Assembly: GCA_031701365.1 (NCBI GenBank)
Contig: GCA_031701365.1_4118.1
Length of the DNA stretch: 64,000 nucleotides
Reading direction: 5' to 3' (one strand)
Source: Escherichia coli
GTDB taxonomy: Bacteria > Pseudomonadota > Gammaproteobacteria > Enterobacterales > Enterobacteriaceae
The first letter of the stretch is position 1; every line of letters begins with the position of its first letter. This document shows positions 8,979 to 64,000 of this stretch, piece after piece. The notes beneath the pieces were generated by a model. The model saw only the letters and a program-made list of their open reading frames with translations. It was not told where the DNA came from and searched no databases. The position numbers and the translations under genes are program-made.

Positions 8979-9430
8979 ATGTTGACGAAATAAAAAATCA
9001 TTTTGAAATTGCAATGTCATGTGAATTTGACACACAACGTGTTCATTACCCGAAAGAACATATACGCATTTGTTGTGAATTGTCAGATGATTGTAATATT
9101 TTTATTGGAAAAACCTATGACATGATCGATCTTTCATGTATAGATCCATTGGAAAGAAAAACAAAATATTTATATCTGTACAACACAACATCAGATACGA
9201 TTGCAATACAACTAATATCAACCACAACATCCCAAAGTTATTATAACATAACTGAGGTTAGTAGTTTAACGTTAACCGAAGAAGGATTCTTTCAACAATC
9301 GCTTATTCGTGAAATTGGTGTTAGTTATGATGAGTTAAATGTATTAGTAGATTGTTTTGAAAAATTGAGTACTTTTGTATTATCCCTTTTTAATATACAG
9401 TCGCAAAATCCAATGGTGGTGAAATGCTAA
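8969..9430 (+). CDS. FFQ-motif family protein
   Basis: 'TEEGFFQQSLIREIGVSYDELN'. Confidence 0.6.
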   Translation: MQMNVDEIKNHFEIAMSCEFDTQRVHYPKEHIRICCELSDDCNIFIGKTYDMIDLSCIDPLERKTKYLYLYNTTSDTIAIQLISTTTSQSYYNITEVSSLTLTEEGFFQQSLIREIGVSYDELNVLVDCFEKLSTFVLSLFNIQSQNPMVVKC

Positions 9431-10521: not shown

Positions 10522-11382
10522 ATGAAACCTATCCGAGTACTTTCTCTTTTTAATGGAATGAGTGTGGGATATATGGCATTGCAAGATGCTGGTATCCCAG
10601 TTGAAAAATATTATTCATCCGAAATTGATAAGTACGCAATAGCTGAATCTCAATCTAACTTTCCTGATATTATCCAATTGGGTGATGTAACTAAGTGGAG
10701 AGAATGGGATATTGAGTGGGACAAAATAGATTTATTAATGGGTGGTTTCCCATGCCAAGCTTGGTCAGTTGCAGGTAAACAGGGTGGTTTAAATGATATA
10801 CGTGGGCAGTTATTTTTAGTAATGGTTGAAATTTTTGATCATATCAAAAGTCTCAATCCTAACTTGAAATTTCTGTTTGAAAATGTTAAAATGAAGGAAG
10901 ATTTCAAAGAATACATTAATAGTATTTTAGGAATCACGCCAGTACTGATAAACTCCCAGCATTATACGCCTCACTTCAGGCAGAGATATTACTGGTACAG
11001 TACTGATAAGCTTTTTATACCACCTGCATTATCCAATGCACCTAAACTTCAAGATATTATTGAAGATGGTTGGTACACTGACAGAACCGCTTCGTACTGT
11101 ATAGATGCTAACTATTTTAAAGGTGGTGATTGTAACCAGTACTTTAATAAATCCAGACGACAATTGGTGTTTCGTGACCCAGTGATCAGTCGTCAATATC
11201 TATTAGAGAATGGCAAAAGAAATATTGACTATAGACACTTAAGTGTAGTAGAATGTTGTAAATTACAGGGTGTTCCTGAAGATTTCTTTAAAGTGTCTAG
11301 TAAGACACAAGCATACAAAATGCTTGGGAATGGATGGACTATGCCAGTTATATCACATTTACTAAGAGAGATATTCTTTTGA
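10522..11382 (+). CDS. DNA (cytosine-5)-methyltransferase, orphan
   Basis: 286 aa; motif I-like 'LSLFNGMSVG', catalytic 'GGFPCQAWS' (PCQ), 'FENV' (ENV), C-terminal 'GNGWTMPV'. Confidence 0.75.
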   Translation: MKPIRVLSLFNGMSVGYMALQDAGIPVEKYYSSEIDKYAIAESQSNFPDIIQLGDVTKWREWDIEWDKIDLLMGGFPCQAWSVAGKQGGLNDIRGQLFLVMVEIFDHIKSLNPNLKFLFENVKMKEDFKEYINSILGITPVLINSQHYTPHFRQRYYWYSTDKLFIPPALSNAPKLQDIIEDGWYTDRTASYCIDANYFKGGDCNQYFNKSRRQLVFRDPVISRQYLLENGKRNIDYRHLSVVECCKLQGVPEDFFKVSSKTQAYKMLGNGWTMPVISHLLREIFF

Positions 11383-12423: not shown

Positions 12424-12875
12424 AAATTGATAATTTGATTCATGTTTTAGGATCTTTACATAAAATATTATCACATCTACATGAGATAAAGAAACTGGGA
12501 TTTAACATCTCAAATTCAATTGAAACTACATTTAAATATCAATCAATTACTGGTGATGGTTATTACATAATCGAATATACTTATGAAACCGATCCAGACT
12601 TCTATCCTCTTACGTTGAGAATTTATCCAACAAATCCGAGAGGAATTCACGACATATCATCAATTTCACTTGATCCAGATGGTGAAACGAGTATTGAATA
12701 CAATAATGATTCAAAACCAGAATTTTACATTGATGATATTAAAATGATGTTCAACGATGAATATGTGTTCCAGCAAAGTACAGTGCATGATGTTGGAAGT
12801 ACTAATGGACAATTTTGGAATACATGTTATTATCATATGATTGAAATTTGTAAATTACTAAAAGGCGATGATTAA
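12420..12875 (+). CDS. FFQ-motif family protein
   Basis: 'DEYVFQQSTVHDVG'. Confidence 0.6.
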   Translation: MKIDNLIHVLGSLHKILSHLHEIKKLGFNISNSIETTFKYQSITGDGYYIIEYTYETDPDFYPLTLRIYPTNPRGIHDISSISLDPDGETSIEYNNDSKPEFYIDDIKMMFNDEYVFQQSTVHDVGSTNGQFWNTCYYHMIEICKLLKGDD

Positions 12876-20334: not shown

Positions 20335-20670
<336 letters not shown>

Positions 20671-20671
20671 A

Positions 20672-20854
20672 ATGACACACGAAGAATGGATGTCCAAACA
20701 GCATAAAGAACATGACTGCTTTGGGAATGGTATTCGTCAGGTACATTATGATATTCTCAAAGATATAAATTTATTCATAAAATATGTTTTGGATGAAAAT
20801 AAACATTGGTTTATATATGAGATTGCATATAGAAACTCAAATAAACAAAAATAA
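20672..20854 (+). CDS. MTHEEW-family mini-protein
   Basis: Starts MTHEEWM; ends 'HWFIYEIAYR' like the 20153 copy ('HWFIYELAIR'). Confidence 0.45.
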   Translation: MTHEEWMSKQHKEHDCFGNGIRQVHYDILKDINLFIKYVLDENKHWFIYEIAYRNSNKQK

Positions 20855-20868
20855 ATAAGGAATATATT

Positions 20869-21087
20869 ATGGAAACAACGTTATTTGAAGTTATTCAAGC
20901 ATTAAAAACTGGTGATGACATTCAAGTATTGCTACATGGTTATCGTTTAAAAGGCACTGTGGTTTTAGTTAATGACACAACGTTAGTTATTGCCGAAACA
21001 AATCCATATGATAGTAATCAAGTTGCTAATATCCATATTGATATTAAAAGCATTATTGGTGTAGGCGTAAATAAAAATCAAGAATAA
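20869..21087 (+). CDS. hypothetical protein
   Basis: 72 aa ORF. Confidence 0.45.
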   Translation: METTLFEVIQALKTGDDIQVLLHGYRLKGTVVLVNDTTLVIAETNPYDSNQVANIHIDIKSIIGVGVNKNQE

Positions 21088-21165
21088 CAAATGTTTTTGA
21101 AAAAACCAGAAAATGAATGATTTTTTTGGGACAACTCAAAAATATATGATATAATAATTAGTACA

Positions 21166-21255
<90 letters not shown>

Positions 21256-21259
21256 ATAT

Positions 21260-21361
<102 letters not shown>

Positions 21362-21364
21362 AAC

Positions 21365-21487
21365 CATGACGCATGAAGAATGGATGAATGACATTAATTT
21401 TAGATATGCAGGTTTCGGTAACTGGAGAAAGTATCATTGGGAAATCATGTCAGACCCAGCAGAATACGATAAACTTATAAACCATGA
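21365..21487 (+). CDS. MTHEEW-family mini-protein
   Basis: 40 aa starting MTHEEWM. Confidence 0.35.
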
Positions 21488-21526
21488 AGCGTATCCGTGG
21501 TTCTTTATTGAAATAATGGTACGAAC

Positions 21527-21692
<166 letters not shown>

Positions 21693-21700
21693 AAAAAAAG

Positions 21701-21733
<33 letters not shown>

Positions 21734-21734
21734 A

Positions 21735-22114
<380 letters not shown>

Positions 22115-22171
22115 CTAAATAATTCAGTACTGAGAATATTAATATGTTTAAAGATGAACGTCCAGATTTGT

Positions 22172-22209
<38 letters not shown>

Positions 22210-22214
22210 GAATT

Positions 22215-22557
22215 CCACAATCAGACGTATATGGTGTAAGTTACGTCGATGCTATCCAGAACAAGATCTCTGGTACTCTAGGAAGTGGTGAATGTTAACC
22301 TAGACGGGTTTGATAATTGGACGATAGGCAATTATTACTTGACTAGCAGGTTGAAACTAGAGGTGACAGTCCTTCACCAAACTGGAAAACCGGATGGACT
22401 TTTATTTAAAAGGGTAAGGCGTGGAAATATGTTTACAGAAGTTGCTTTTAGTAGCCTGTACGCACCACGTCAAGGTAGCCGAAAGGTAAGTTAAAACGGG
22501 TGGTTATAAAGCTGAATTAACAGCGGCGTTTAAAAGCGTCACCATCCATTTTTTTTT
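22215..22557 (+). ncRNA. candidate small stable RNA inside the tRNA cluster
   Basis: ~340 nt without a convincing ORF, higher GC, promoter directly upstream, ends in a T9 run (22549-22557). Confidence 0.3.
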
Positions 22558-22573
22558 AATTAAAGTTGGCAAT

Positions 22574-23067
<494 letters not shown>

Positions 23068-23070
23068 TAC

Positions 23071-23226
<156 letters not shown>

Positions 23227-23247
23227 CATAAACAATGAGAGGTATAA

Positions 23248-23765
<518 letters not shown>

Positions 23766-23805
23766 CAGGGGAGGTTGTGATTCCCGATTCAGTAGTTTTA
23801 AAGCT

Positions 23806-23914
<109 letters not shown>

Positions 23915-24075
23915 AGAGGTACTTAGAGTATACTCAGTTCACCTTTAGCTAAAATGGTCACGGTAGAATATTGTTGCAACAGTATTCAGTACTACTTTTT
24001 TAATTGACATAACTTTGAATGGAGTGTATTATGTTCCAAGAAGAAAACTGGGGTTTTTAACATAACGGGGAATGT

Positions 24076-24218
<143 letters not shown>

Positions 24219-24261
24219 AATGCGAAAGAGTATGGAGACTTGTTGGTTATCTTACTTCCTA

Positions 24262-24350
<89 letters not shown>

Positions 24351-33645: not shown

Positions 33646-34067
33646 GAGGCTATAATAAGATTTGTATTTTTGTATTTTTAGTTTGTGCATTCAATTCGTT
33701 TGGTTACTACTGTACAGAAAATAATATTTCATATGGTTTAAATCCTTTGTGGTTTACAATTTCCAATGTAGCACAAATTGGTATTGCTCTTATGTCTGCA
33801 CTTATGTTCTGTCCAATTGTCACTATGGATACTGATCATGAAAGGCTTGGATTTCTCCGTGATACTGGAGACGAACCTTACAGTAGATTGATTGTGTTGT
33901 ATCCATTTATTGTTATTTTAGGTACTAACATCCAACTTGGGTCATTATCTAATAGTGTTACATCAGCAGCTATTGCTATATTTGCATTCACATTTTTTAT
34001 GGTACACAAATCAGTACTTAATTGGTATATCACAAAAATGGCAGAAGAAGGTACTAAAAATACTTGA
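33642..34067 (+). CDS. integral membrane protein (about 4 TM)
   Basis: 141 aa; stop TGA lies in downstream promoter -35. Confidence 0.5.
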   Translation: MRGYNKICIFVFLVCAFNSFGYYCTENNISYGLNPLWFTISNVAQIGIALMSALMFCPIVTMDTDHERLGFLRDTGDEPYSRLIVLYPFIVILGTNIQLGSLSNSVTSAAIAIFAFTFFMVHKSVLNWYITKMAEEGTKNT

Positions 34068-34092
34068 CATAATTTAGTATGTTATATATAAT
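34064..34092 (+). promoter_or_regulatory. sigma70-type promoter (TTGACA-17-TATAAT)
   Basis: TTGACA 34064-69; TATAAT 34087-92. Confidence 0.55.
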
Positions 34093-34384: not shown

Positions 34385-34413
34385 TTGACATAACAAATAA
34401 TATGGAGTACAAT
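34385..34413 (+). promoter_or_regulatory. sigma70-type promoter (TTGACA-17-TACAAT)
   Basis: TTGACA 34385-90; TACAAT 34408-13. Confidence 0.55.
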
Positions 34414-35139: not shown

Positions 35140-35637
35140 ATGACAACTGTTTATATTGATAAACGATTAAATTTATTGATTACCGATTCTAGAGTTACGT
35201 CAACTATACCACGAAACTTATTTGGTTTTTTCCCACTAAGACCAAAATATCAATATGGAGTTGTTAATCAAAAAACTTTATATGTACATGACCGTTTATT
35301 CAGTGCTAGTGGGTCAGTAAGTGAAATTGATAAAGTACTGGATTGGTTAATTAATAAAGTACCAGTTATACCTGACAGAAAGTTAAGTTGCCATTGTGTG
35401 CTTCTTTCTAAAGATTATGTTATTCATATGATTTTAACTAAAGGAAAGTTTATTAAAAAACTTGAATATCTACATGAAGACTACACTTTCTTTATGGGAA
35501 GTGGTGGAGAATACATGCTAGATGCTGCTATTCATGAAGAACATACAACTTTATATGATAAAGTGTTTAGTACTTTCATGGATGTGCATAACCATGATTG
35601 CTTCACAGATGATAATATTAATGTATATCGATTTTGA
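35140..35637 (+). CDS. hypothetical protein immediately upstream of sigma factor
   Basis: 165 aa. Confidence 0.5.
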   Translation: MTTVYIDKRLNLLITDSRVTSTIPRNLFGFFPLRPKYQYGVVNQKTLYVHDRLFSASGSVSEIDKVLDWLINKVPVIPDRKLSCHCVLLSKDYVIHMILTKGKFIKKLEYLHEDYTFFMGSGGEYMLDAAIHEEHTTLYDKVFSTFMDVHNHDCFTDDNINVYRF

Positions 35638-35658
35638 TTTCGTCATTAGGAGATGTAA

Positions 35659-36624
35659 GTGAAAAAGCTTGATTTAAATACAATTGCCGAAGAAGTTCTG
35701 GATGAATGTTTTGCTAATGAAGAAGTCAACACACTAGAAGCCTTAGATTTCGTTGAAGATAAAGATGAAAATGAAGGTAAAGTACAAAGCAGTTTCAAAT
35801 ATAATATTACACTTAAGCGACCACCAAATGTTTCCAATGAAGATCTAATTCGTGATATTCAAGCTGGTATCAATGTAAAGAAAAACACTGAACTGTTAGT
35901 TCGTTACAATTATGGACTTATTATTGATGTAGCAAGTAAATGTACTTGTTATATCCCATTTGAAGATAAGATTTCATATGGTGTTGAGGGGTTCATGAGA
36001 GCACTAAAAACCTTTGATCTTAATAAGAATGTTAAGTTCATTACCTATGCTTCTTCTAGTATTTACATGACAGTTTATAACGAAAGTTCTGACGCTAACT
36101 ATATGGTACACTTCCCACGTTATATGAGTGTTCATAAGATCAAAGTAAAAAGATTCTGTCAGGAATATATGCGTAAACATGGTGTTCGCCCAACTCCTGA
36201 AATAATCTCAGAGGGTACTGGGATTGAGATTCAGCATGTTAATAACTGTTTGTTATTTCAAAGCGAATACACTTCTCTGGATGCACCATTAGACGGTGTT
36301 ACCGATGGTACACTAGGTGACATTATTCATTCACCTGCTTCTGATTTTAACCTCAATGTTGATAGTATCCGTGCACCTTTACGTTATGCTATCAATGAAC
36401 TGACCAACGAATTGAGTACTAAAGAACGTGAGATTATCCAGCGTGTTCATGGTCTAGGTGAATATGAACCTGAAACGCTTCGTGAGATTGCTGATAATGG
36501 TTTTGTTGATGATAATGGAAAATATGTTAAATCCCGTTCATCAATACACCGAAAGTACAGTGAAGCTATGCAAAAGCTTAAGAAGCTAGTACTTGCAAAA
36601 GGGTACGAATACGAAGATTTCTAA
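35659..36624 (+). CDS. sigma-70-family RNA polymerase sigma factor
   Basis: 321 aa, GTG start after AGGAG; region-2-like 'YGVEGFMRALKTFD...FITYASSSIYMTV', region-4-like 'LSTKEREIIQRVHGL...ETLREIA...SRSSIHRKYSEAMQKLKKL'. Confidence 0.6.
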   Translation: MKKLDLNTIAEEVLDECFANEEVNTLEALDFVEDKDENEGKVQSSFKYNITLKRPPNVSNEDLIRDIQAGINVKKNTELLVRYNYGLIIDVASKCTCYIPFEDKISYGVEGFMRALKTFDLNKNVKFITYASSSIYMTVYNESSDANYMVHFPRYMSVHKIKVKRFCQEYMRKHGVRPTPEIISEGTGIEIQHVNNCLLFQSEYTSLDAPLDGVTDGTLGDIIHSPASDFNLNVDSIRAPLRYAINELTNELSTKEREIIQRVHGLGEYEPETLREIADNGFVDDNGKYVKSRSSIHRKYSEAMQKLKKLVLAKGYEYEDF

Positions 36625-36630
36625 AGAAAA

Positions 36631-36657
36631 AAGGTTGGCTTATGCCAACCTTTTTTT
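36631..36657 (+). terminator. rho-independent terminator (AAGGTTGGC-TTAT-GCCAACCTT + T7)
   Basis: Perfect 9-bp stem and T-run after sigma gene stop. Confidence 0.7.
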
Positions 36658-36689
36658 ATGGGATGAAGTAAAAGTTTGTGATATAATTA

Positions 36690-37180
36690 TCTTGTACAAT
36701 TCTGTTGGCATGATATTCATGTACCTGATCCACTCGAAAACGTAGAGGGCAGTTGAGCAGTCCGACAGTGCGAACAGCAAAAGAAACCCGTTAGATGTGG
36801 GCATAGTTTGAACCCCTCACGGCAATGCGGCTGTATAAAGAACCACGTTAGGATAGCTGGTGGTTCCTTGATAGACATATAAGGATAACACCTTACGAAT
36901 TATCTAAGGGAGAGTTATCGAATTTTGTACAGGAAAGTTGCGTCCAAAATTTGAGTACTCACATTAAGTATTTGATTGCATAGATACTTAATGAAGATAC
37001 ACTATGTTTAAAAGTGTAGACCGTCATATGAAACTGAAGTAGAGAGAAACAGGATGACCCGCTTTCGCACTCGTTATGAGTAATCTTCAATGCAATAGCT
37101 CTGATACCATCAGCGTCAAATTTCCCTCCTTGTGGGGGGAAGAAAAATCCCTTCCTCAAATCCCGTCAATATTAAAAGTC
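36690..37180 (+). ncRNA. candidate structured non-coding RNA / non-coding island
   Basis: ~500 nt with stops in all plus frames, locally elevated GC, preceded by extended -10 (TGaTATAAT 36676-87), followed by promoter at 37182. Confidence 0.3.
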
Positions 37181-37274
37181 CTTGACAGTTATTAATCATT
37201 CGCGTAGAATACGTAGTATTAGAAGCGAACAGACATCTCGAAGAGATGGATGATTAACCATTAAGGAATATCCA

Positions 37275-37711: not shown

Positions 37712-38500
37712 ATGAGCACTATCGATGAACTGATTCAACGGAATTCAAAATATTACCAACCATCAGAAATTGTGGATAACATTACTAAATCTGAGTTTGG
37801 ACCGAACACACGCAAACTCATTCATGTAATGTCACGTGATGGCTTTAAATGTGATTGTTGTGGTGAATCAAATGTAGTATTCACTTTACACAAGCACAGT
37901 ACTAAAGAACGTTATAAATTCAGACCTTATGTACTTAAAGGGAAACGTCTTGTACGCATGACGTTAGACCATAACGTACTGGACTGTCTTCAGGGCGGTA
38001 ATGATAAAGAGAACATGACTGCATTGTGTGAAGATTGTAACGCATTACGTCAGCATAAGTTTGCTGAGTACAGTGAGTTTAAACACTGGTATCATAACGC
38101 GGATCGTTCAATCGAGCCTGACGTTAACTACTGCTTCATTGAGTACATTAAGAATGCAAAAGATACATACATTCTTAAATCAATGTCACCTATTACCGTG
38201 TTTCCTGAGAACCTATTCACTACATTAAAGAATAGTTTTATTGTAGGTGATATTGATGCATTCAAGTATTTTGACAAAGGTGCAAAACATTTTGAAATTC
38301 AATGTCTTAGTACTGCACTATGTGAACTCATTAAAATTTACATAAAAGAGTATTTGGGTATTGACAATGTACGTGTACCAGAGTATACTTTTTCTATTGA
38401 ATTCAATTGTGAATCAATCAAAGAGTTTGGAATTCTTTTCAATAAACAAATAGAACTTGCAATTCAAAACGAAATCAAGTACTATACTACTAACATTTAA
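37712..38500 (+). CDS. HNH endonuclease
   Basis: 262 aa; 'FKCDCCGES' (CxxC), 'TLDHNVLDCLQGGNDKENMTALCEDCNALRQHK' (DH...N...CxxC-N). Confidence 0.7.
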   Translation: MSTIDELIQRNSKYYQPSEIVDNITKSEFGPNTRKLIHVMSRDGFKCDCCGESNVVFTLHKHSTKERYKFRPYVLKGKRLVRMTLDHNVLDCLQGGNDKENMTALCEDCNALRQHKFAEYSEFKHWYHNADRSIEPDVNYCFIEYIKNAKDTYILKSMSPITVFPENLFTTLKNSFIVGDIDAFKYFDKGAKHFEIQCLSTALCELIKIYIKEYLGIDNVRVPEYTFSIEFNCESIKEFGILFNKQIELAIQNEIKYYTTNI

Positions 38501-47822: not shown

Positions 47823-47937
47823 TTTAACTTTGGGACAACCATTCTTATTATGATATAATGTTTTATGTCATTCGATATAAATGACAACGGAACTATAAAT
47901 ATTATAGTAAAATTTATCTCTTATAGGAGTTATAAAA

Positions 47938-62918: not shown

Positions 62919-63581
62919 ATGATGAAATCAAAATTAGGTTTGTTTTATAAAAACTATTTTGTTAAACAACGTAAATTTATAAAAAAATATTTCTCTGGCG
63001 AGAAGTCTAGTCCTATAATCTTTAAAAGACCAAGTTATAATACTTACTTAGCTGGTGCTAAACAGTCTAAGAAATTTATTACTCTTTTACATAAAAACAA
63101 AATTAAAGCTTCTTATGTTGAAACGAGAAGAAACTCATCAATAACTCCTGGTGATTTTATTGAGTACGGATGTTTCAATATTAAGTACAATGATAATACA
63201 TACTTTATGGATATTGATTGTAATACATCCAATCTTTTTAACATTGTAGTAAATCCATTAAAACAATATAATGTTTATGGTGATTCTATTATCAAATTAA
63301 TCAAAAACAAAGATAGCTTTGATTTTGAAATAAATGTTTTAGATGATAATTTTGACGAAGTACCAGTAAACCCTGAAATCTGTGATATTTTAAACAGTTT
63401 AAAAGGTAGTACCTACAATATATCATCTGATTTAATGTTTCAGTACTCATTAATCCATAAAGATATTGAAAAGTATATTGAATGCTCCAAAATTTTGAAT
63501 TATCTTTACGATGAATTTAAAAAGAGTTCTAAAATAACCGCATACACTTTGTACAATATTCCTAAAATGGTGAATCTTTGA
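62919..63581 (+). CDS. hypothetical protein (AT-rich)
   Basis: 220 aa; preceded by AGTACT palindromic hairpin 62883-62910. Confidence 0.5.
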   Translation: MMKSKLGLFYKNYFVKQRKFIKKYFSGEKSSPIIFKRPSYNTYLAGAKQSKKFITLLHKNKIKASYVETRRNSSITPGDFIEYGCFNIKYNDNTYFMDIDCNTSNLFNIVVNPLKQYNVYGDSIIKLIKNKDSFDFEINVLDDNFDEVPVNPEICDILNSLKGSTYNISSDLMFQYSLIHKDIEKYIECSKILNYLYDEFKKSSKITAYTLYNIPKMVNL

Positions 63582-64000
63582 CAAATACAGTACTGGCAAC
63601 TCCACCGTCTGTAATATATTGTCCAGTACTGTAAATTTGTATACCATCGGTTAAGTAAGTTCTGTATAAAGTTGCTGTAACATATACGTTATTCATATTC
63701 ATCTCTATTGGTAGTACACATTTGGTATAGGCTGAGACATCTGTTTGTGTACCTATACCTAATTGACCTGCGTTATCGCCTGTGTTATAACCAGTTGCGT
63801 AAACACCTAATGAAGTTATAATATGATTAGAAAAATATGAATAACCCACACTGCTTCTTATTATATCACCTGGTGCTTGTGTTGTTTGTCTTAACGAAAT
63901 ATATGTTTGTGATGTAGAACCATTTGCTAACTGACCAAAGTATTGTCCACCACCATGATATGCAAATAATTTATTAGTACTATTATTATTTGCTATAGCA
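63562..64000 (-). CDS. tail-fibre/adhesin-like late protein, C-terminal part (partial; 5' end beyond window)
   Basis: Minus-strand frame open from 63562 to the window edge; G/Y/T/S-rich ('GGGQYFGQLANGSTSQTYISL...GYNTGDNAGQLGIGTQTD'); convergent with plus-strand genes. Confidence 0.5.
   Translation of the reverse strand, partial: AIANNNSTNKLFAYHGGGQYFGQLANGSTSQTYISLRQTTQAPGDIIRSSVGYSYFSNHIITSLGVYATGYNTGDNAGQLGIGTQTDVSAYTKCVLPIEMNMNNVYVTATLYRTYLTDGIQIYSTGQYITDGGVASTVFVKDSPF

What the first reader, a model, noticed from the sequence alone, without database searches (positions are those of the whole stretch)
35140..36624. Full-length sigma-70-family sigma factor in a T4-type early region
ORF 35659-36624 (321 aa, GTG start with AGGAG RBS) has recognisable region-2-like and region-4-like (HTH) segments. 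Established knowledge: T4 itself redirects host RNA polymerase with small factors (AsiA, MotA, gp55/gp33) and does not encode a sigma70-like protein of this size. A phage-borne sigma with intact -35-recognition region would imply its own promoter class. The preceding 165-aa ORF (35140-35637) is a candidate partner. Both are unverified by search.
Basis: partly seen in the sequence, partly recalled or inferred. Interest (0 to 1): 0.6.

Follow-up and report, generated by a model that had tools for sequence, protein, structure and literature searches.

The report
Jumbo-phage sigma factor, already annotated
The ORF is a genuine sigma-70-family sigma factor, but it belongs to a RaK2-like jumbo coliphage (near-identical to phage 121Q), where it is already annotated; what this study adds is a sequence-based case that it reads its own "middle" promoter class.

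Summary
Both ORFs exist as described. The 321-aa protein is a sigma-70-family factor with regions 2, 3 and 4, supported by Pfam, NCBIfam, PHROG, and an AlphaFold model matched by Foldseek to sigma-S and SigA. The window is not T4. [quoted passage not shown] No experiments on it were found.

The gene sits in an early operon behind perfect host sigma-70 promoters. The protein lacks the W433/W434 dyad, carries E585S and R588H, and has an 8-residue insertion in the region-4.2 helix-turn-helix.

Genome-wide, 121Q has three promoter classes: sigma-70 consensus (early), TAAATA (late, gp55-like gp591), and a third class, TG(G/A)GACA-N13-TGnTATAAT. The third class precedes replication genes, tRNAs and the late-sigma gene. 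Its -35-like box changes between phage genera in step with the sigma recognition helix. It is canonical TTGACA in PA5oct, where no homologue of this sigma was detected. I infer a three-step sigma cascade; the link between sigma and class M has about 0.55 probability.

The upstream 165-aa ORF is an HslV/proteasome-like Ntn hydrolase. The gap downstream holds an undescribed, multi-copy, covariation-supported structured RNA.

The parts
34064..34092 (+). Host sigma-70 consensus promoter (TTGACA-17-TATAAT, 12/12) heading the operon that contains the sigma gene
34385..34413 (+). Second sigma-70-type promoter (TTGACA-17-TACAAT, 11/12) upstream of the sigma operon
35140..35637 (+). 165-aa ORF (121Q gp166): HslV/proteasome-like Ntn hydrolase with invariant Thr2, Asp16, Lys45 and Gly-Ser-Gly 120-122. 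It lies immediately upstream of sigma in Asteriusvirus, the RaK2 group and the Munch group.
35649..35653 (+). AGGAG ribosome-binding site of the sigma gene
35659..36624 (+). 321-aa sigma-70-family sigma factor (121Q gp167 orthologue)
35659..35805 (+). Residues 1-49: acidic N-terminal segment (14 of the first 40 residues are Asp/Glu), predicted disordered. There is no Pfam region 1.1 or 1.2 match.
35836..36099 (+). Residues 60-147: sigma domain 2. D403, F419, F427, T429 and Y430 equivalents are kept. W433/W434 become S133/S134, Q437 becomes M, T440 becomes Y, and E407 becomes Y.
36118..36255 (+). Residues 154-199: sigma domain 3. H455 becomes Y155 and E458 becomes V158.
36358..36597 (+). Residues 234-313: sigma domain 4 (helix-turn-helix). 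The recognition helix reads S-R293-S-S-I-H297-R-K (sigma-70: T-R584-E-R-I-R588-Q-I).
36508..36531 (+). Residues 284-291 (DDNGKYVK): family-specific insertion in the turn of the region-4.2 helix-turn-helix. The model shows it as a short beta-hairpin.
36627..36658 (+). Intrinsic-terminator-like hairpin (AAAAAAGGTTGGC-TTAT-GCCAACCTTTTTTT) directly after the sigma stop codon. It was read from the sequence; the terminator scan did not list it.
36660..36687 (+). Class-M-type promoter (GGGATG-N13-TGATATAAT) that starts the downstream non-coding RNA
36693..37171 (+). About 480-nt structured non-coding RNA, one of four paralogues per genome. It is not part of the sigma protein but is a likely target of the promoter class assigned to it.
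21128..21155 (+). Class-M promoter (GGGACA-N13-TGATATAAT) 10 nt upstream of tRNA-Ser(tga)
47832..47859 (+). Class-M promoter (GGGACA-N13-TGATATAAT)

Best explanation
The 321-aa ORF is a phage-encoded sigma-70-family sigma factor of a RaK2-like jumbo coliphage. It is transcribed early by host sigma-70 holoenzyme from consensus promoters. The protein then binds host core RNA polymerase in place of sigma-70. It directs the polymerase to a phage-specific 'middle' promoter class: an A-rich tract, then T-G-(G/A)-G-A-C-A, then 13 nt, then TG(A/C)TATAAT. These promoters precede replication and nucleotide-metabolism genes, phage tRNAs, a four-copy structured RNA family, and the gene for the gp55-like late sigma (gp591). 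The late sigma in turn would read (A/T)TAAATA late promoters. The result is a three-step cascade: host sigma-70, then the phage RpoD-like sigma, then the phage gp55-like sigma. Shown here: sigma-family membership, the early promoter context, the existence and statistics of the three promoter classes, and their gene associations. Inferred, not shown: that this sigma binds E. coli core polymerase and that class M is its cognate class. Sub-confidences: sigma-70-family protein 0.97; works as a sigma on host core 0.8; class M is its promoter class about 0.55.
For: Sigma identity: Pfam regions 2, 3 and 4; PHROG 351 at 2.6e-60; TIGR02937 above cutoff and RpoD C-terminal model at 6e-25; phmmer to solved RpoD/SigA/RpoS chains down to 5e-17; AlphaFold model with sigma domains 2, 3 and 4, whose 170 Foldseek hits at E<=1e-3 have sigma factors in all 50 listed rows, topped by E. 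coli sigma-S at 2.8e-10. Early expression: 12 perfect sigma-70 promoters in the window, all on the + strand, against 0.11 expected, two of them just upstream of the operon. In CBB the sigma gene likewise follows TTGACA promoters. A distinct class: the strict class-M pattern occurs 19 times on the + strand and never on the - strand of 121Q, with 0.17 expected. It sits before SSB, primase, exonuclease, topoisomerase II, the DNA polymerase region, the ClpA-like gene and late-sigma gene gp591. The CBB paper also places its gp55-like gene behind a 'divergent' promoter. Covariation: at orthologous promoters the extended -10 and the spacing are kept, while the -35-like box is TG(G/A)GACA in 121Q and fENko-Kae01 (recognition helix R-x-S-x-H-R), TTGAACA in RaK2 (R-G-T-x-H-Y) and TGAAAC(G/A) in CBB/Yen904 (K-A-T-x-S-R). 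Primase identity to 121Q is 64-66% for all three. Residue logic: R584, which contacts the invariant C at -31, is kept. E585 and R588, which govern -33, are replaced, and -33 together with the positions upstream of it is where the box departs from TTGACA. Natural control: PA5oct gave no hit to this sigma and has canonical TTGACA at the orthologous primase and exonuclease promoters.
Against: No experiment exists for any member of this sigma family. Class-M promoters carry a perfect extended -10 (TGnTATAAT) and a GACA half-box, so host sigma-70 could probably use them without help. The phage sigma lacks E458, and in this phage H455 is Y155; these are the residues that read TGn in sigma-70. It also lacks the W433/W434 dyad and the region-2.2 residues E407 and N409, so melting and core binding may differ or be impaired. 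The covariation rests on four lineages and the control on one (PA5oct, which has a different host genus). A separate phage activator that binds the box was not excluded; the AsiA/MotA search was uninformative. Class-M promoters also occur inside the early region, so the temporal label 'middle' is an assumption.
Confidence: 0.55

Rival explanations
1. Class-M promoters are read by host sigma-70 through their extended -10. The conserved TG(G/A)GAC box is bound by a separate phage activator, as in the T4 MotA/AsiA sigma-appropriation logic. The phage sigma then serves some other, unidentified promoter set.
For: Every class-M site has a perfect TGnTATAAT. The phage sigma lacks E458, and H455 is Y in this phage, and these residues read TGn in sigma-70. 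Mimasvirus-type phages encode an HTH regulator two genes upstream of the sigma gene. T4 middle promoters work this way (established knowledge).
Against: No AsiA or MotA homologue was detected, although that test was insensitive. No other over-represented promoter-like dyad was found that could serve the phage sigma. The box sits exactly in the -35 register at 16-nt spacing and keeps the A-C that R584 reads. Box variants track the sigma recognition-helix residues.
Confidence: 0.2
2. The phage sigma is a surrogate housekeeping sigma. It recognises essentially the same promoters as sigma-70 (classes E and M alike) and keeps phage transcription going after host sigma-70 is inactivated or outcompeted.
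For: The best profile and structure matches are to group 1/2 sigmas. The -11A/-7T pocket residues F419, F427, T429 and Y430 are kept, and both promoter classes use TATAAT.
Against: E585, R586, R588 and Q589 of the -35 recognition helix are all replaced, and the HTH turn carries an insertion. E585Q and R588H are known to change -33 specificity. The early promoters are perfect TTGACA, which fits host sigma-70 rather than this helix.
Confidence: 0.15
3. The protein no longer acts as an initiation factor. It is a decoy or inhibitor that binds host core polymerase or host factors, for example to shut off host transcription.
For: Residues important in sigma-70 for open-complex formation (W433, W434, Y425) and for core binding (E407, N409) are replaced in the whole phage family.
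Against: All three domains, the region 3.2 linker and the DNA-facing helices are conserved across genera at 31-44% identity. Y430 and the -10 pocket residues are invariant. Many functional alternative sigmas lack the Trp dyad (established knowledge).
Confidence: 0.07

Closest known systems
RpoD-like sigma factors of RaK2-like (group 2.2) jumbo phages: 121Q gp167, RaK2 ORF244, GAP32 and CBB_513
   Same: It is the same gene: 99.4% protein identity to 121Q gp167, and 35-44% to RaK2 and CBB. It has the same position in the early region and the same family-specific substitutions and HTH insertion.
   Different: Nothing substantive; this window is another isolate of the same species group. What is added here is the residue-level description and the promoter assignment in Asteriusvirus.
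E. coli sigma-S / sigma-70 (group 1-2 sigma factors)
   Same: Domain order sigma-2, sigma-3, sigma-4. These are the best sequence and fold matches. D403, F419, F427, T429, Y430, P453 and R584 are conserved.
   Different: No region 1.1, and region 1.2 is not detected. The W433/W434 dyad is lost. E407Y, Q437M, T440Y, E458V, E585S, R586S and R588H are substituted, and the HTH turn has an 8-residue insertion. Scores are far below the RpoD/RpoS equivalog cutoffs (88 against 354 bits).
Bacillus phage SPO1 gp28 followed by gp33/34 (a phage sigma cascade)
   Same: What it works like: an early gene, transcribed by host holoenzyme, encodes a sigma that redirects host core polymerase to middle promoters, and these include the gene(s) for the late sigma (established knowledge; SPO1 summarised in the abstract listed).
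   Different: Different hosts, and no sequence relationship was tested. Here the late factor is a T4 gp55-type protein, and the middle promoters keep a sigma-70-like extended -10.
T4 middle-mode transcription (AsiA/MotA sigma appropriation)
   Same: The same regulatory niche. The promoters have a sigma-70-type -10, often with TGn, plus a non-canonical box replacing the -35. They sit before replication genes and tRNAs (established knowledge).
   Different: T4 remodels host sigma-70 rather than replacing it. No AsiA or MotA was detected here (weak test). The box is TG(G/A)GACA at -35, not TGCTT at -30.
HslV (ClpQ) and 20S proteasome beta subunits (for the 165-aa neighbour)
   Same: N-terminal Thr directly after Met1, with conserved Asp16, Lys45 and Gly-Ser-Gly. 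The predicted alpha-beta-beta-alpha Ntn fold has HslV as its top Foldseek hit.
   Different: No Pfam Proteasome match and no sequence hit in the PDB. TM-scores are only 0.46-0.57. It is shorter than HslV, and no HslU partner is adjacent. The genome has a second, more canonical HslV-family gene, gp475.

Membership tests
Sigma-70 family (superfamily level) | Region 2 (core binding and -10 recognition) detectable by profile | tested here: met
   Pfam Sigma70_r2 residues 80-140, E=7e-5, 23.0 bits (gathering score 24.0, so marginally below). TIGR02937 scores 44.7 against a cutoff of 42.9. RpoD_Cterm covers residues 79-283 at 6e-25.
Sigma-70 family (superfamily level) | Region 3 | tested here: met
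   Pfam Sigma70_r3 residues 162-226, E=2e-9, 37.8 bits against a gathering score of 25.3.
Sigma-70 family (superfamily level) | Region 4 helix-turn-helix | tested here: met
   Pfam Sigma70_r4 E=3e-5, 23.8 bits against 24.1; only the first half of the profile matches because of the insertion. The AlphaFold model shows helices 254-264, 274-280 and 293-313. The family alignment places SRSSIHRK on the recognition helix.
Sigma-70 family (superfamily level) | Sigma fold | tested here: met
   Foldseek against the PDB gave 170 hits at E<=1e-3. All 50 listed rows are sigma factors, and the top hit is E. coli sigma-S 6omf_F at 2.8e-10. Model mean pLDDT is 72.
Sigma-70 family (superfamily level) | Binds core RNA polymerase and confers promoter-specific initiation | not testable with these tools
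   This needs biochemistry. Region-2.2 residues E407 and N409 are substituted.
Group 1 primary sigma (RpoD orthologue, as some GenBank records name it) | Regions 1.1 and 1.2 present; score reaches the RpoD equivalog cutoff | tested here: not met
   No PF03979 or PF00140 hit. NCBIfam RpoD models score 59-88 bits against cutoffs of 354-779.
Group 1 primary sigma (RpoD orthologue, as some GenBank records name it) | Conserved W433/W434 dyad, Q437/T440, and the TRERIRQ recognition helix | tested here: not met
   These are S133/S134, M137/Y140 and SRSSIHR in this protein. The cellular homologues in the same alignment keep WW and TRERIRQ.
T4 gp55-type late sigma | Match to the gp55 family profile | tested here: not met
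   The ORF matches PHROG 351 only. The gp55-type protein of this phage group is a different gene, 121Q gp591 (PHROG 12791 at 3e-154; PHROG 234 at 8e-18).
HslV/proteasome-type Ntn hydrolase (165-aa ORF) | N-terminal nucleophile Thr with the Asp17 / Lys33 / Gly-Ser-Gly constellation | tested here: met
   M1, T2, T3, D16, K45, G120, S121 and G122 are invariant in 16 homologues down to 44% identity. Equating them with HslV catalytic residues is by pattern, not by structural superposition.
HslV/proteasome-type Ntn hydrolase (165-aa ORF) | Ntn (alpha-beta-beta-alpha) fold | tested here: inconclusive
   The model has pLDDT 82.7 and pTM 0.71. The top Foldseek hits are HslV 6kr1_I (E=4.6e-4), 20S beta subunits and connectase, but TM-scores are only 0.46-0.57.
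HslV/proteasome-type Ntn hydrolase (165-aa ORF) | Sequence-profile membership | tested here: inconclusive
   PHROG 1040 'peptidase HslV family' at 1.3e-6. There was no Pfam hit, no PDB hit by sequence or profile, and no significant hhalign match to gp475.
Any Rfam family (downstream structured RNA) | Covariance-model match | tested here: not met
   No relevant match at gathering or permissive thresholds on five copies.

The most novel reading that the evidence does not exclude
The RaK2-like phage sigma, with its naturally occurring E585S/R588H recognition helix and a beta-hairpin inserted into the HTH turn, is the dedicated reader of the genus-specific TG(G/A)GACA-N13-TGnTATAAT promoters. It would then form the middle tier of a host-sigma-70, RpoD-like, gp55-like cascade. 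The same promoter class also drives a previously undescribed 470-570-nt structured RNA family. That family has 3-5 copies per jumbo-phage genome and also occurs at prophage edges in Serratia.
Probability: 0.45. Interest if true: 0.6.

Novelty: already known. Interest (0 to 1): 0.33.

Why it matters
The gene itself is ordinary for this phage group, so the finding as stated adds little. The value is in what it makes testable. RaK2-like jumbo phages infect E. coli K-12 and are therapy candidates, yet their transcription programme has not been studied. A full sigma that replaces the host factor, where T4 instead remodels it, together with a promoter box that co-varies with the recognition helix, would give a natural set of orthogonal sigma/promoter pairs. 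It would also provide a simple model of specificity evolution in region 4.2. The adjacent structured RNA family may be of greater interest than the sigma factor.

Tried and rejected
1. The published CBB/GAP32 'divergent' motif TGAAACG…TATA was searched in the window and occurs 0 times. The Asteriusvirus equivalent turned out to be TG(G/A)GACA.
2. The T4 late motif TATAAATA is depleted in the window: 2 per strand against 7.4 expected. The late class here is the shorter (A/T)TAAATA.
3. tblastn of T4 AsiA, MotA and gp55 against 121Q found nothing. The query sequences were recalled from memory, and even gp55 failed to hit gp591, so the test is uninformative.
4. PDB sequence and profile searches for the 165-aa ORF gave nothing relevant. 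hhalign against the annotated HslV-family gp475 was not significant.
5. Pfam finds nothing for gp591 or gp475; PHROGs does.
6. Rfam gave no match for the downstream RNA at gathering or permissive thresholds. My impression that parts of it resemble the P6-P7 core of T4 group I introns comes from memory and received no support.
7. Two of the five bacterial pattern hits (Methylophilus) were chance matches inside GC-rich coding sequence.
8. Transcriptome or TSS data for Asteriusvirus or RaK2-type phages were looked for and not found.
Full report
**1. Observation**

ORF 35140-35637 encodes 165 aa. ORF 35659-36624 encodes 321 aa and starts at a GTG that follows AGGAG (35649-35653). A hairpin followed by a T-run (36627-36658) lies directly after the stop codon.

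**2. What genome this is**

The 4-kb neighbourhood is 99.7% identical to Escherichia phage 121Q and 97-99.5% identical to PBECO4, phAPEC6, G17, Sharanji and others. These are Asteriusvirus, i.e. RaK2-like jumbo myoviruses of about 350 kb, not T4-type phages.

They do share distant T4-like core genes: gp23-, gp20-, gp17-, gp41-, gp43- and gp55-like, as annotated in 121Q.

In 121Q the two ORFs are gp166 ('hypothetical protein') and gp167 ('RNA polymerase sigma factor'). A 100%-identical protein is in NCBI, named 'sigma-70 family RNA polymerase sigma factor'.

The literature already covers this gene:
- The CBB paper describes the orthologue (CBB_513) as having regions 2, 3 and 4 and lying in the putative early region.
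- Iyer et al. list an RpoD-like sigma, alongside a minimal gp55-type one, as characteristic of group 2 jumbo phages.
- The Sharanji paper calls it a hallmark of that group.

I found no experimental work on the protein and no transcriptome of any Asteriusvirus or RaK2-type phage.

**3. Is it a sigma factor?**

Yes.
- **Pfam:** Sigma70_r3 (E=2e-9, above the gathering score), Sigma70_r2 (7e-5) and Sigma70_r4 (3e-5). The last two fall within about one bit of the gathering score.
- **PHROG 351** 'RNA polymerase sigma factor' matches at 2.6e-60.
- **NCBIfam:** TIGR02937 is above its cutoff, and the RpoD C-terminal model aligns residues 79-283 at 6e-25.
- **Solved structures:** phmmer matches RpoD, SigA, SigB and RpoS chains, with a best E-value of 5e-17.
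- **Structure prediction:** an AlphaFold model (mean pLDDT 72) shows sigma-2 (residues 60-147), sigma-3 (154-199), a low-confidence linker and sigma-4 (234-313). Foldseek returns 170 PDB hits at E<=1e-3; all 50 listed rows are sigma factors, led by E. coli sigma-S.

It is not an RpoD orthologue, although some GenBank records name it so. There is no region 1.1 or 1.2 match, and its scores are 59-88 bits against equivalog cutoffs of 354-779.

**4. Residue-level anatomy (E. coli numbering)**

Conserved across the phage family: D403, F419, F427, T429, Y430, P453 and R584 (K in Mimasvirus).

Replaced in every phage member, while cellular homologues in the same alignment keep them:
- W433/W434 become Ser, Thr or Ala.
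- E407 becomes Y, and N409 becomes V or F.
- T440 becomes Y or M.
- E458 becomes V (R in XbC2).
- E585 becomes S, G, T or A.
- R586 becomes S, T or A.
- R588 becomes H (S in Mimasvirus).
- Q589 becomes R or Y.

An insertion of 8-10 residues sits in the turn of the region-4.2 helix-turn-helix (window residues 284-291, DDNGKYVK). The model shows it as a small beta-hairpin.

According to the review PMC2613000:
- R584 contacts -31 and E585 contacts -33.
- E585Q and R588H relax specificity at -33.
- H455 and E458 read the G:C at -14 of extended -10 promoters.
- Y425, F427, Y430, W433 and W434 are needed for open-complex formation.

So the region-4 HTH is present, but it is not 'intact' in the sense of sigma-70-like specificity.

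The N-terminal 49 residues are acidic (14 of the first 40 are Asp/Glu) and predicted to be disordered.

**5. Context: an early operon**

The window holds 12 perfect TTGACA-N16-18-TATAAT promoters, all on the + strand, against 0.11 expected per strand. A further relaxed pattern, TTGACA-N-TAnnnT, gives 31 sites on the + strand and none on the - strand, against 4.1 expected.

Two of these promoters (34064 and 34385) head the run of ORFs that ends with gp166 and the sigma gene. Host sigma-70 holoenzyme should therefore transcribe the sigma gene immediately after infection. That is an inference from consensus matches, not a measurement.

In CBB the orthologue also follows TTGACA promoters.

**6. 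Does it have its own promoter class?**

I assembled 121Q positions 3609-348532 from eight annotated stretches and looked for over-represented spaced dyads and intergenic k-mers. Three classes emerge.

- **Class E.** The sigma-70 consensus: 32 perfect sites, all on the + strand, concentrated at 50-175 kb.
- **Class L.** (A/T)TAAATA, about 35-45 nt upstream of structural genes (major capsid, scaffold, portal, sheath, baseplate). TAAATA is the most enriched intergenic hexamer, 58 observed against 7.2 expected. It resembles the T4 late promoter. The phage encodes a gp55-type protein, gp591 (PHROG 12791 at 3e-154; gp55 family PHROG 234 at 8e-18).
- **Class M.** An A-rich tract, then T-G-(G/A)-G-A-C-A, then 13 nt, then TG(A/C)TATAAT. 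The strict pattern occurs 19 times on the + strand and never on the - strand, with 0.17 expected. The loose pattern occurs 26 times against 0.43 expected.

Class M precedes SSB (two tandem copies), primase, an exonuclease, topoisomerase II, the DNA polymerase region, a ClpA-like gene, the gp591 late-sigma gene, tRNA genes and the RNA family described in section 9.

It is the Asteriusvirus counterpart of the 'divergent RpoD-like' promoter (-35 TGAAACG) reported for CBB and GAP32. In CBB that promoter also precedes replication genes and the gp55-like gene.

**7. Who reads class M?**

Four observations point to the phage sigma.

(a) The replication module is syntenic in 121Q, RaK2, CBB and fENko-Kae01. 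The orthologous promoters keep the extended -10 and roughly the same spacing (13 nt, or 13-14 nt in RaK2), but the -35-like box is lineage-specific:

| Lineage | -35-like box | Recognition helix (positions 584, 585, 586, 588, 589) |
|---|---|---|
| 121Q | TG(G/A)GACA | R S S H R |
| fENko-Kae01 / Munch | TG(G/A)GACA | R T S H R |
| RaK2 | TTGAACA | R G T H Y |
| CBB / Yersinia Yen904 | TGAAAC(G/A) | K A T S R |

The Munch-group sigma is only about 37% identical to the window's sigma, yet it shares both the helix pattern and the box. RaK2's sigma is closer overall (44%) but differs in both. Primase identity to 121Q is 64-66% for all three lineages, so the box does not simply follow genome relatedness.

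(b) The hosts are all Enterobacterales, whose sigma-70 region 4.2 is essentially invariant. This is established knowledge and was not tested here. A host-read element would not be expected to diverge by phage genus, and the early promoters of the same phages remain perfect TTGACA.

(c) The invariant part of the box is the A-C at -32/-31. That matches retention of R584 (or K), the -31 contact. The box departs from TTGACA at -33 and upstream, and E585 and R588, the residues that govern -33, are replaced.

(d) Pseudomonas phage PA5oct is a relative that gave no tblastn hit to this sigma at E<=1e-5. It has canonical TTGACA in the same register at the orthologous primase and exonuclease promoters.

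Against this reading:
- Class M has a perfect extended -10, which host sigma-70 could use without a -35 element.
- The phage sigma lacks E458, and in this phage H455 is also replaced (Y155).
- A MotA-like activator cannot be excluded; the only test was uninformative.
- The comparative evidence rests on few lineages.

I put the sigma-to-class-M link at about 0.55.

**8. The 165-aa neighbour**

Its homologues (16 clusters, down to 44% identity) keep M1-T2-T3, T15-D16-S17, Q44-K45, G58 and G120-S121-G122 invariant. This is the Thr1/Asp17/Lys33/Gly-Ser-Gly pattern of proteasome-type Ntn hydrolases (pattern recognition from established knowledge).

Other evidence:
- PHROG 1040 'peptidase HslV family' matches at 1.3e-6.
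- The AlphaFold model (pLDDT 82.7) has S. aureus HslV, 20S beta subunits and connectase as its best PDB matches, with TM-scores of 0.46-0.57.
- Pfam and PDB sequence searches are negative.

The gene lies directly upstream of the sigma gene in the RaK2 group (46% identity) and the Munch group (30%), and within about 0.5 kb of it in Erwinia phage Hallingskeid. It was not detected in Mimasvirus-type phages, which nonetheless have the sigma.

Adjacency is the only evidence for a partnership, so I treat 'partner' as unproven.

**9. Side finding: a structured RNA family**

The 720-bp unannotated gap after the sigma gene has these properties:
- It contains no + strand ORF of 40 aa or more.
- Its GC content is higher than the flanks (0.39-0.46 against about 0.32).
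- It begins with a class-M-type promoter at 36660-36687.
- Part of it (36777-37211) is 94-100% identical to phages whose sigma genes are only 57-78% identical at the DNA level.

121Q has three diverged paralogues, at about 192.8, 247.5 and 326.6 kb. Each lies in an unannotated gap just downstream of a class-M promoter.

blastn finds the element at 258 places in 62 phage records, i.e. 3-5 copies per genome, across Asteriusvirus, Mimasvirus, Eneladusvirus, the Munch group and Xanthomonas jumbo phages. In each lineage examined, the copy follows that lineage's own class-M box.

Covariation evidence:
- A nine-sequence alignment (467-572 nt) gives an RNAalifold structure of 78 pairs in 15 helices, and 31 pairs show compensatory double changes.
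- 95.4% of cells are paired, against 83.7% in shuffles (0 of 500 reach the observed value) and 43-47% when partners are slid.
- The covariation score is 0.387, against 0.163 in shuffles.

Rfam 15 has no match.

Full-length homologues also occur in two Serratia genomes (one a complete chromosome) and an Enterobacteriaceae MAG. One lies about 440 nt downstream of a large serine recombinase. Another lies next to a CI-type repressor, in a stretch that also holds thiM/thiD.

Its function is unknown.

**10. Verdict**

- The 'T4-type' framing and the implied surprise are not. This is a known, annotated gene of a known phage group.
- The mechanistic proposal, a three-tier sigma cascade with a lineage-specific middle promoter box, is an inference from sequence statistics and comparative data. 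It is directly testable.

Noticed in passing
window 36693-37171 (promoter 36660-36687); paralogues in 121Q at about 192844-193316, 247522-248040 and 326612-327140; bacterial copies in L052, L054 and L055: An undescribed structured RNA family of 470-570 nt. It has 3-5 copies per RaK2-like jumbo-phage genome (258 places in 62 records), and each copy follows a class-M promoter. The consensus structure has 78 pairs, 31 with compensatory changes, and there is no Rfam match. It also occurs at mobile-element edges in Serratia chromosomes and an Enterobacteriaceae MAG.
   Followed up: partly
window 21128-21155 and 22943-22970: Class-M promoters lie directly upstream of the phage tRNA genes tRNA-Ser(tga) at 21166 and tRNA-Ser(gct) at 22977. 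The putative middle class therefore drives stable RNAs as well as replication genes.
   Followed up: partly
L006 about 9280-9310, 10560-10590 and 12730-12760 (121Q 109300, 110582, 112750); also 121Q 98719: A repeated terminator-promoter fusion: the -35 hexamer TTGACT lies inside a GC-rich terminator hairpin (AAAGGGTTGAC-TTCG-GTCAGCCCTTTT) and is followed by TGCTATAAT. A single element therefore appears to end one transcript and start the next.
   Followed up: no
L009 856-1452 (121Q gp475) and neighbours; L010 29757-32045; L012 30853-31398: Besides the HslV-like gp166, the genome encodes a more canonical HslV-family protein (gp475, PHROG 1040 at 1e-23), two ClpP-like proteases, a ClpA-like ATPase and a ClpS-like adaptor. 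That is an unusually full set of proteolysis genes for a phage.
   Followed up: no
window 37712-38500: A 262-aa HNH endonuclease gene (121Q gp170) lies about 0.5 kb downstream of the structured RNA. Another HNH gene (gp513) lies just upstream of the 247.5-kb RNA copy. Whether the endonucleases and the RNA copies move together was not examined.
   Followed up: no
window 36877-37120 compared with L016 (phage ph0011): Mosaic conservation. This stretch of the RNA is 98-100% identical to vB_Ec-M-J and 96-100% identical to UE-S1, but only 36-57% identical to ph0011. Yet ph0011 is closer than vB_Ec-M-J in the flanking sigma gene. This suggests recombinational exchange of RNA variants between phages.
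   Followed up: no
window 20357-24340: ARAGORN finds six tRNAs in the window (Gly, Ser, Ser, Met, Asn, Thr), while the 121Q record annotates seven in the corresponding region, including tRNA-Leu(taa). The spacing also differs, so this isolate differs from 121Q mainly in the tRNA region.
   Followed up: no
window about 63481-64000 (121Q gp234 onward, - strand): The window ends at the start of a long minus-strand array of paralogous RCC1-like genes (121Q gp234-gp248, annotated 'regulator of chromosome condensation'). Each is preceded by a TAAATA late-type motif.
   Followed up: no
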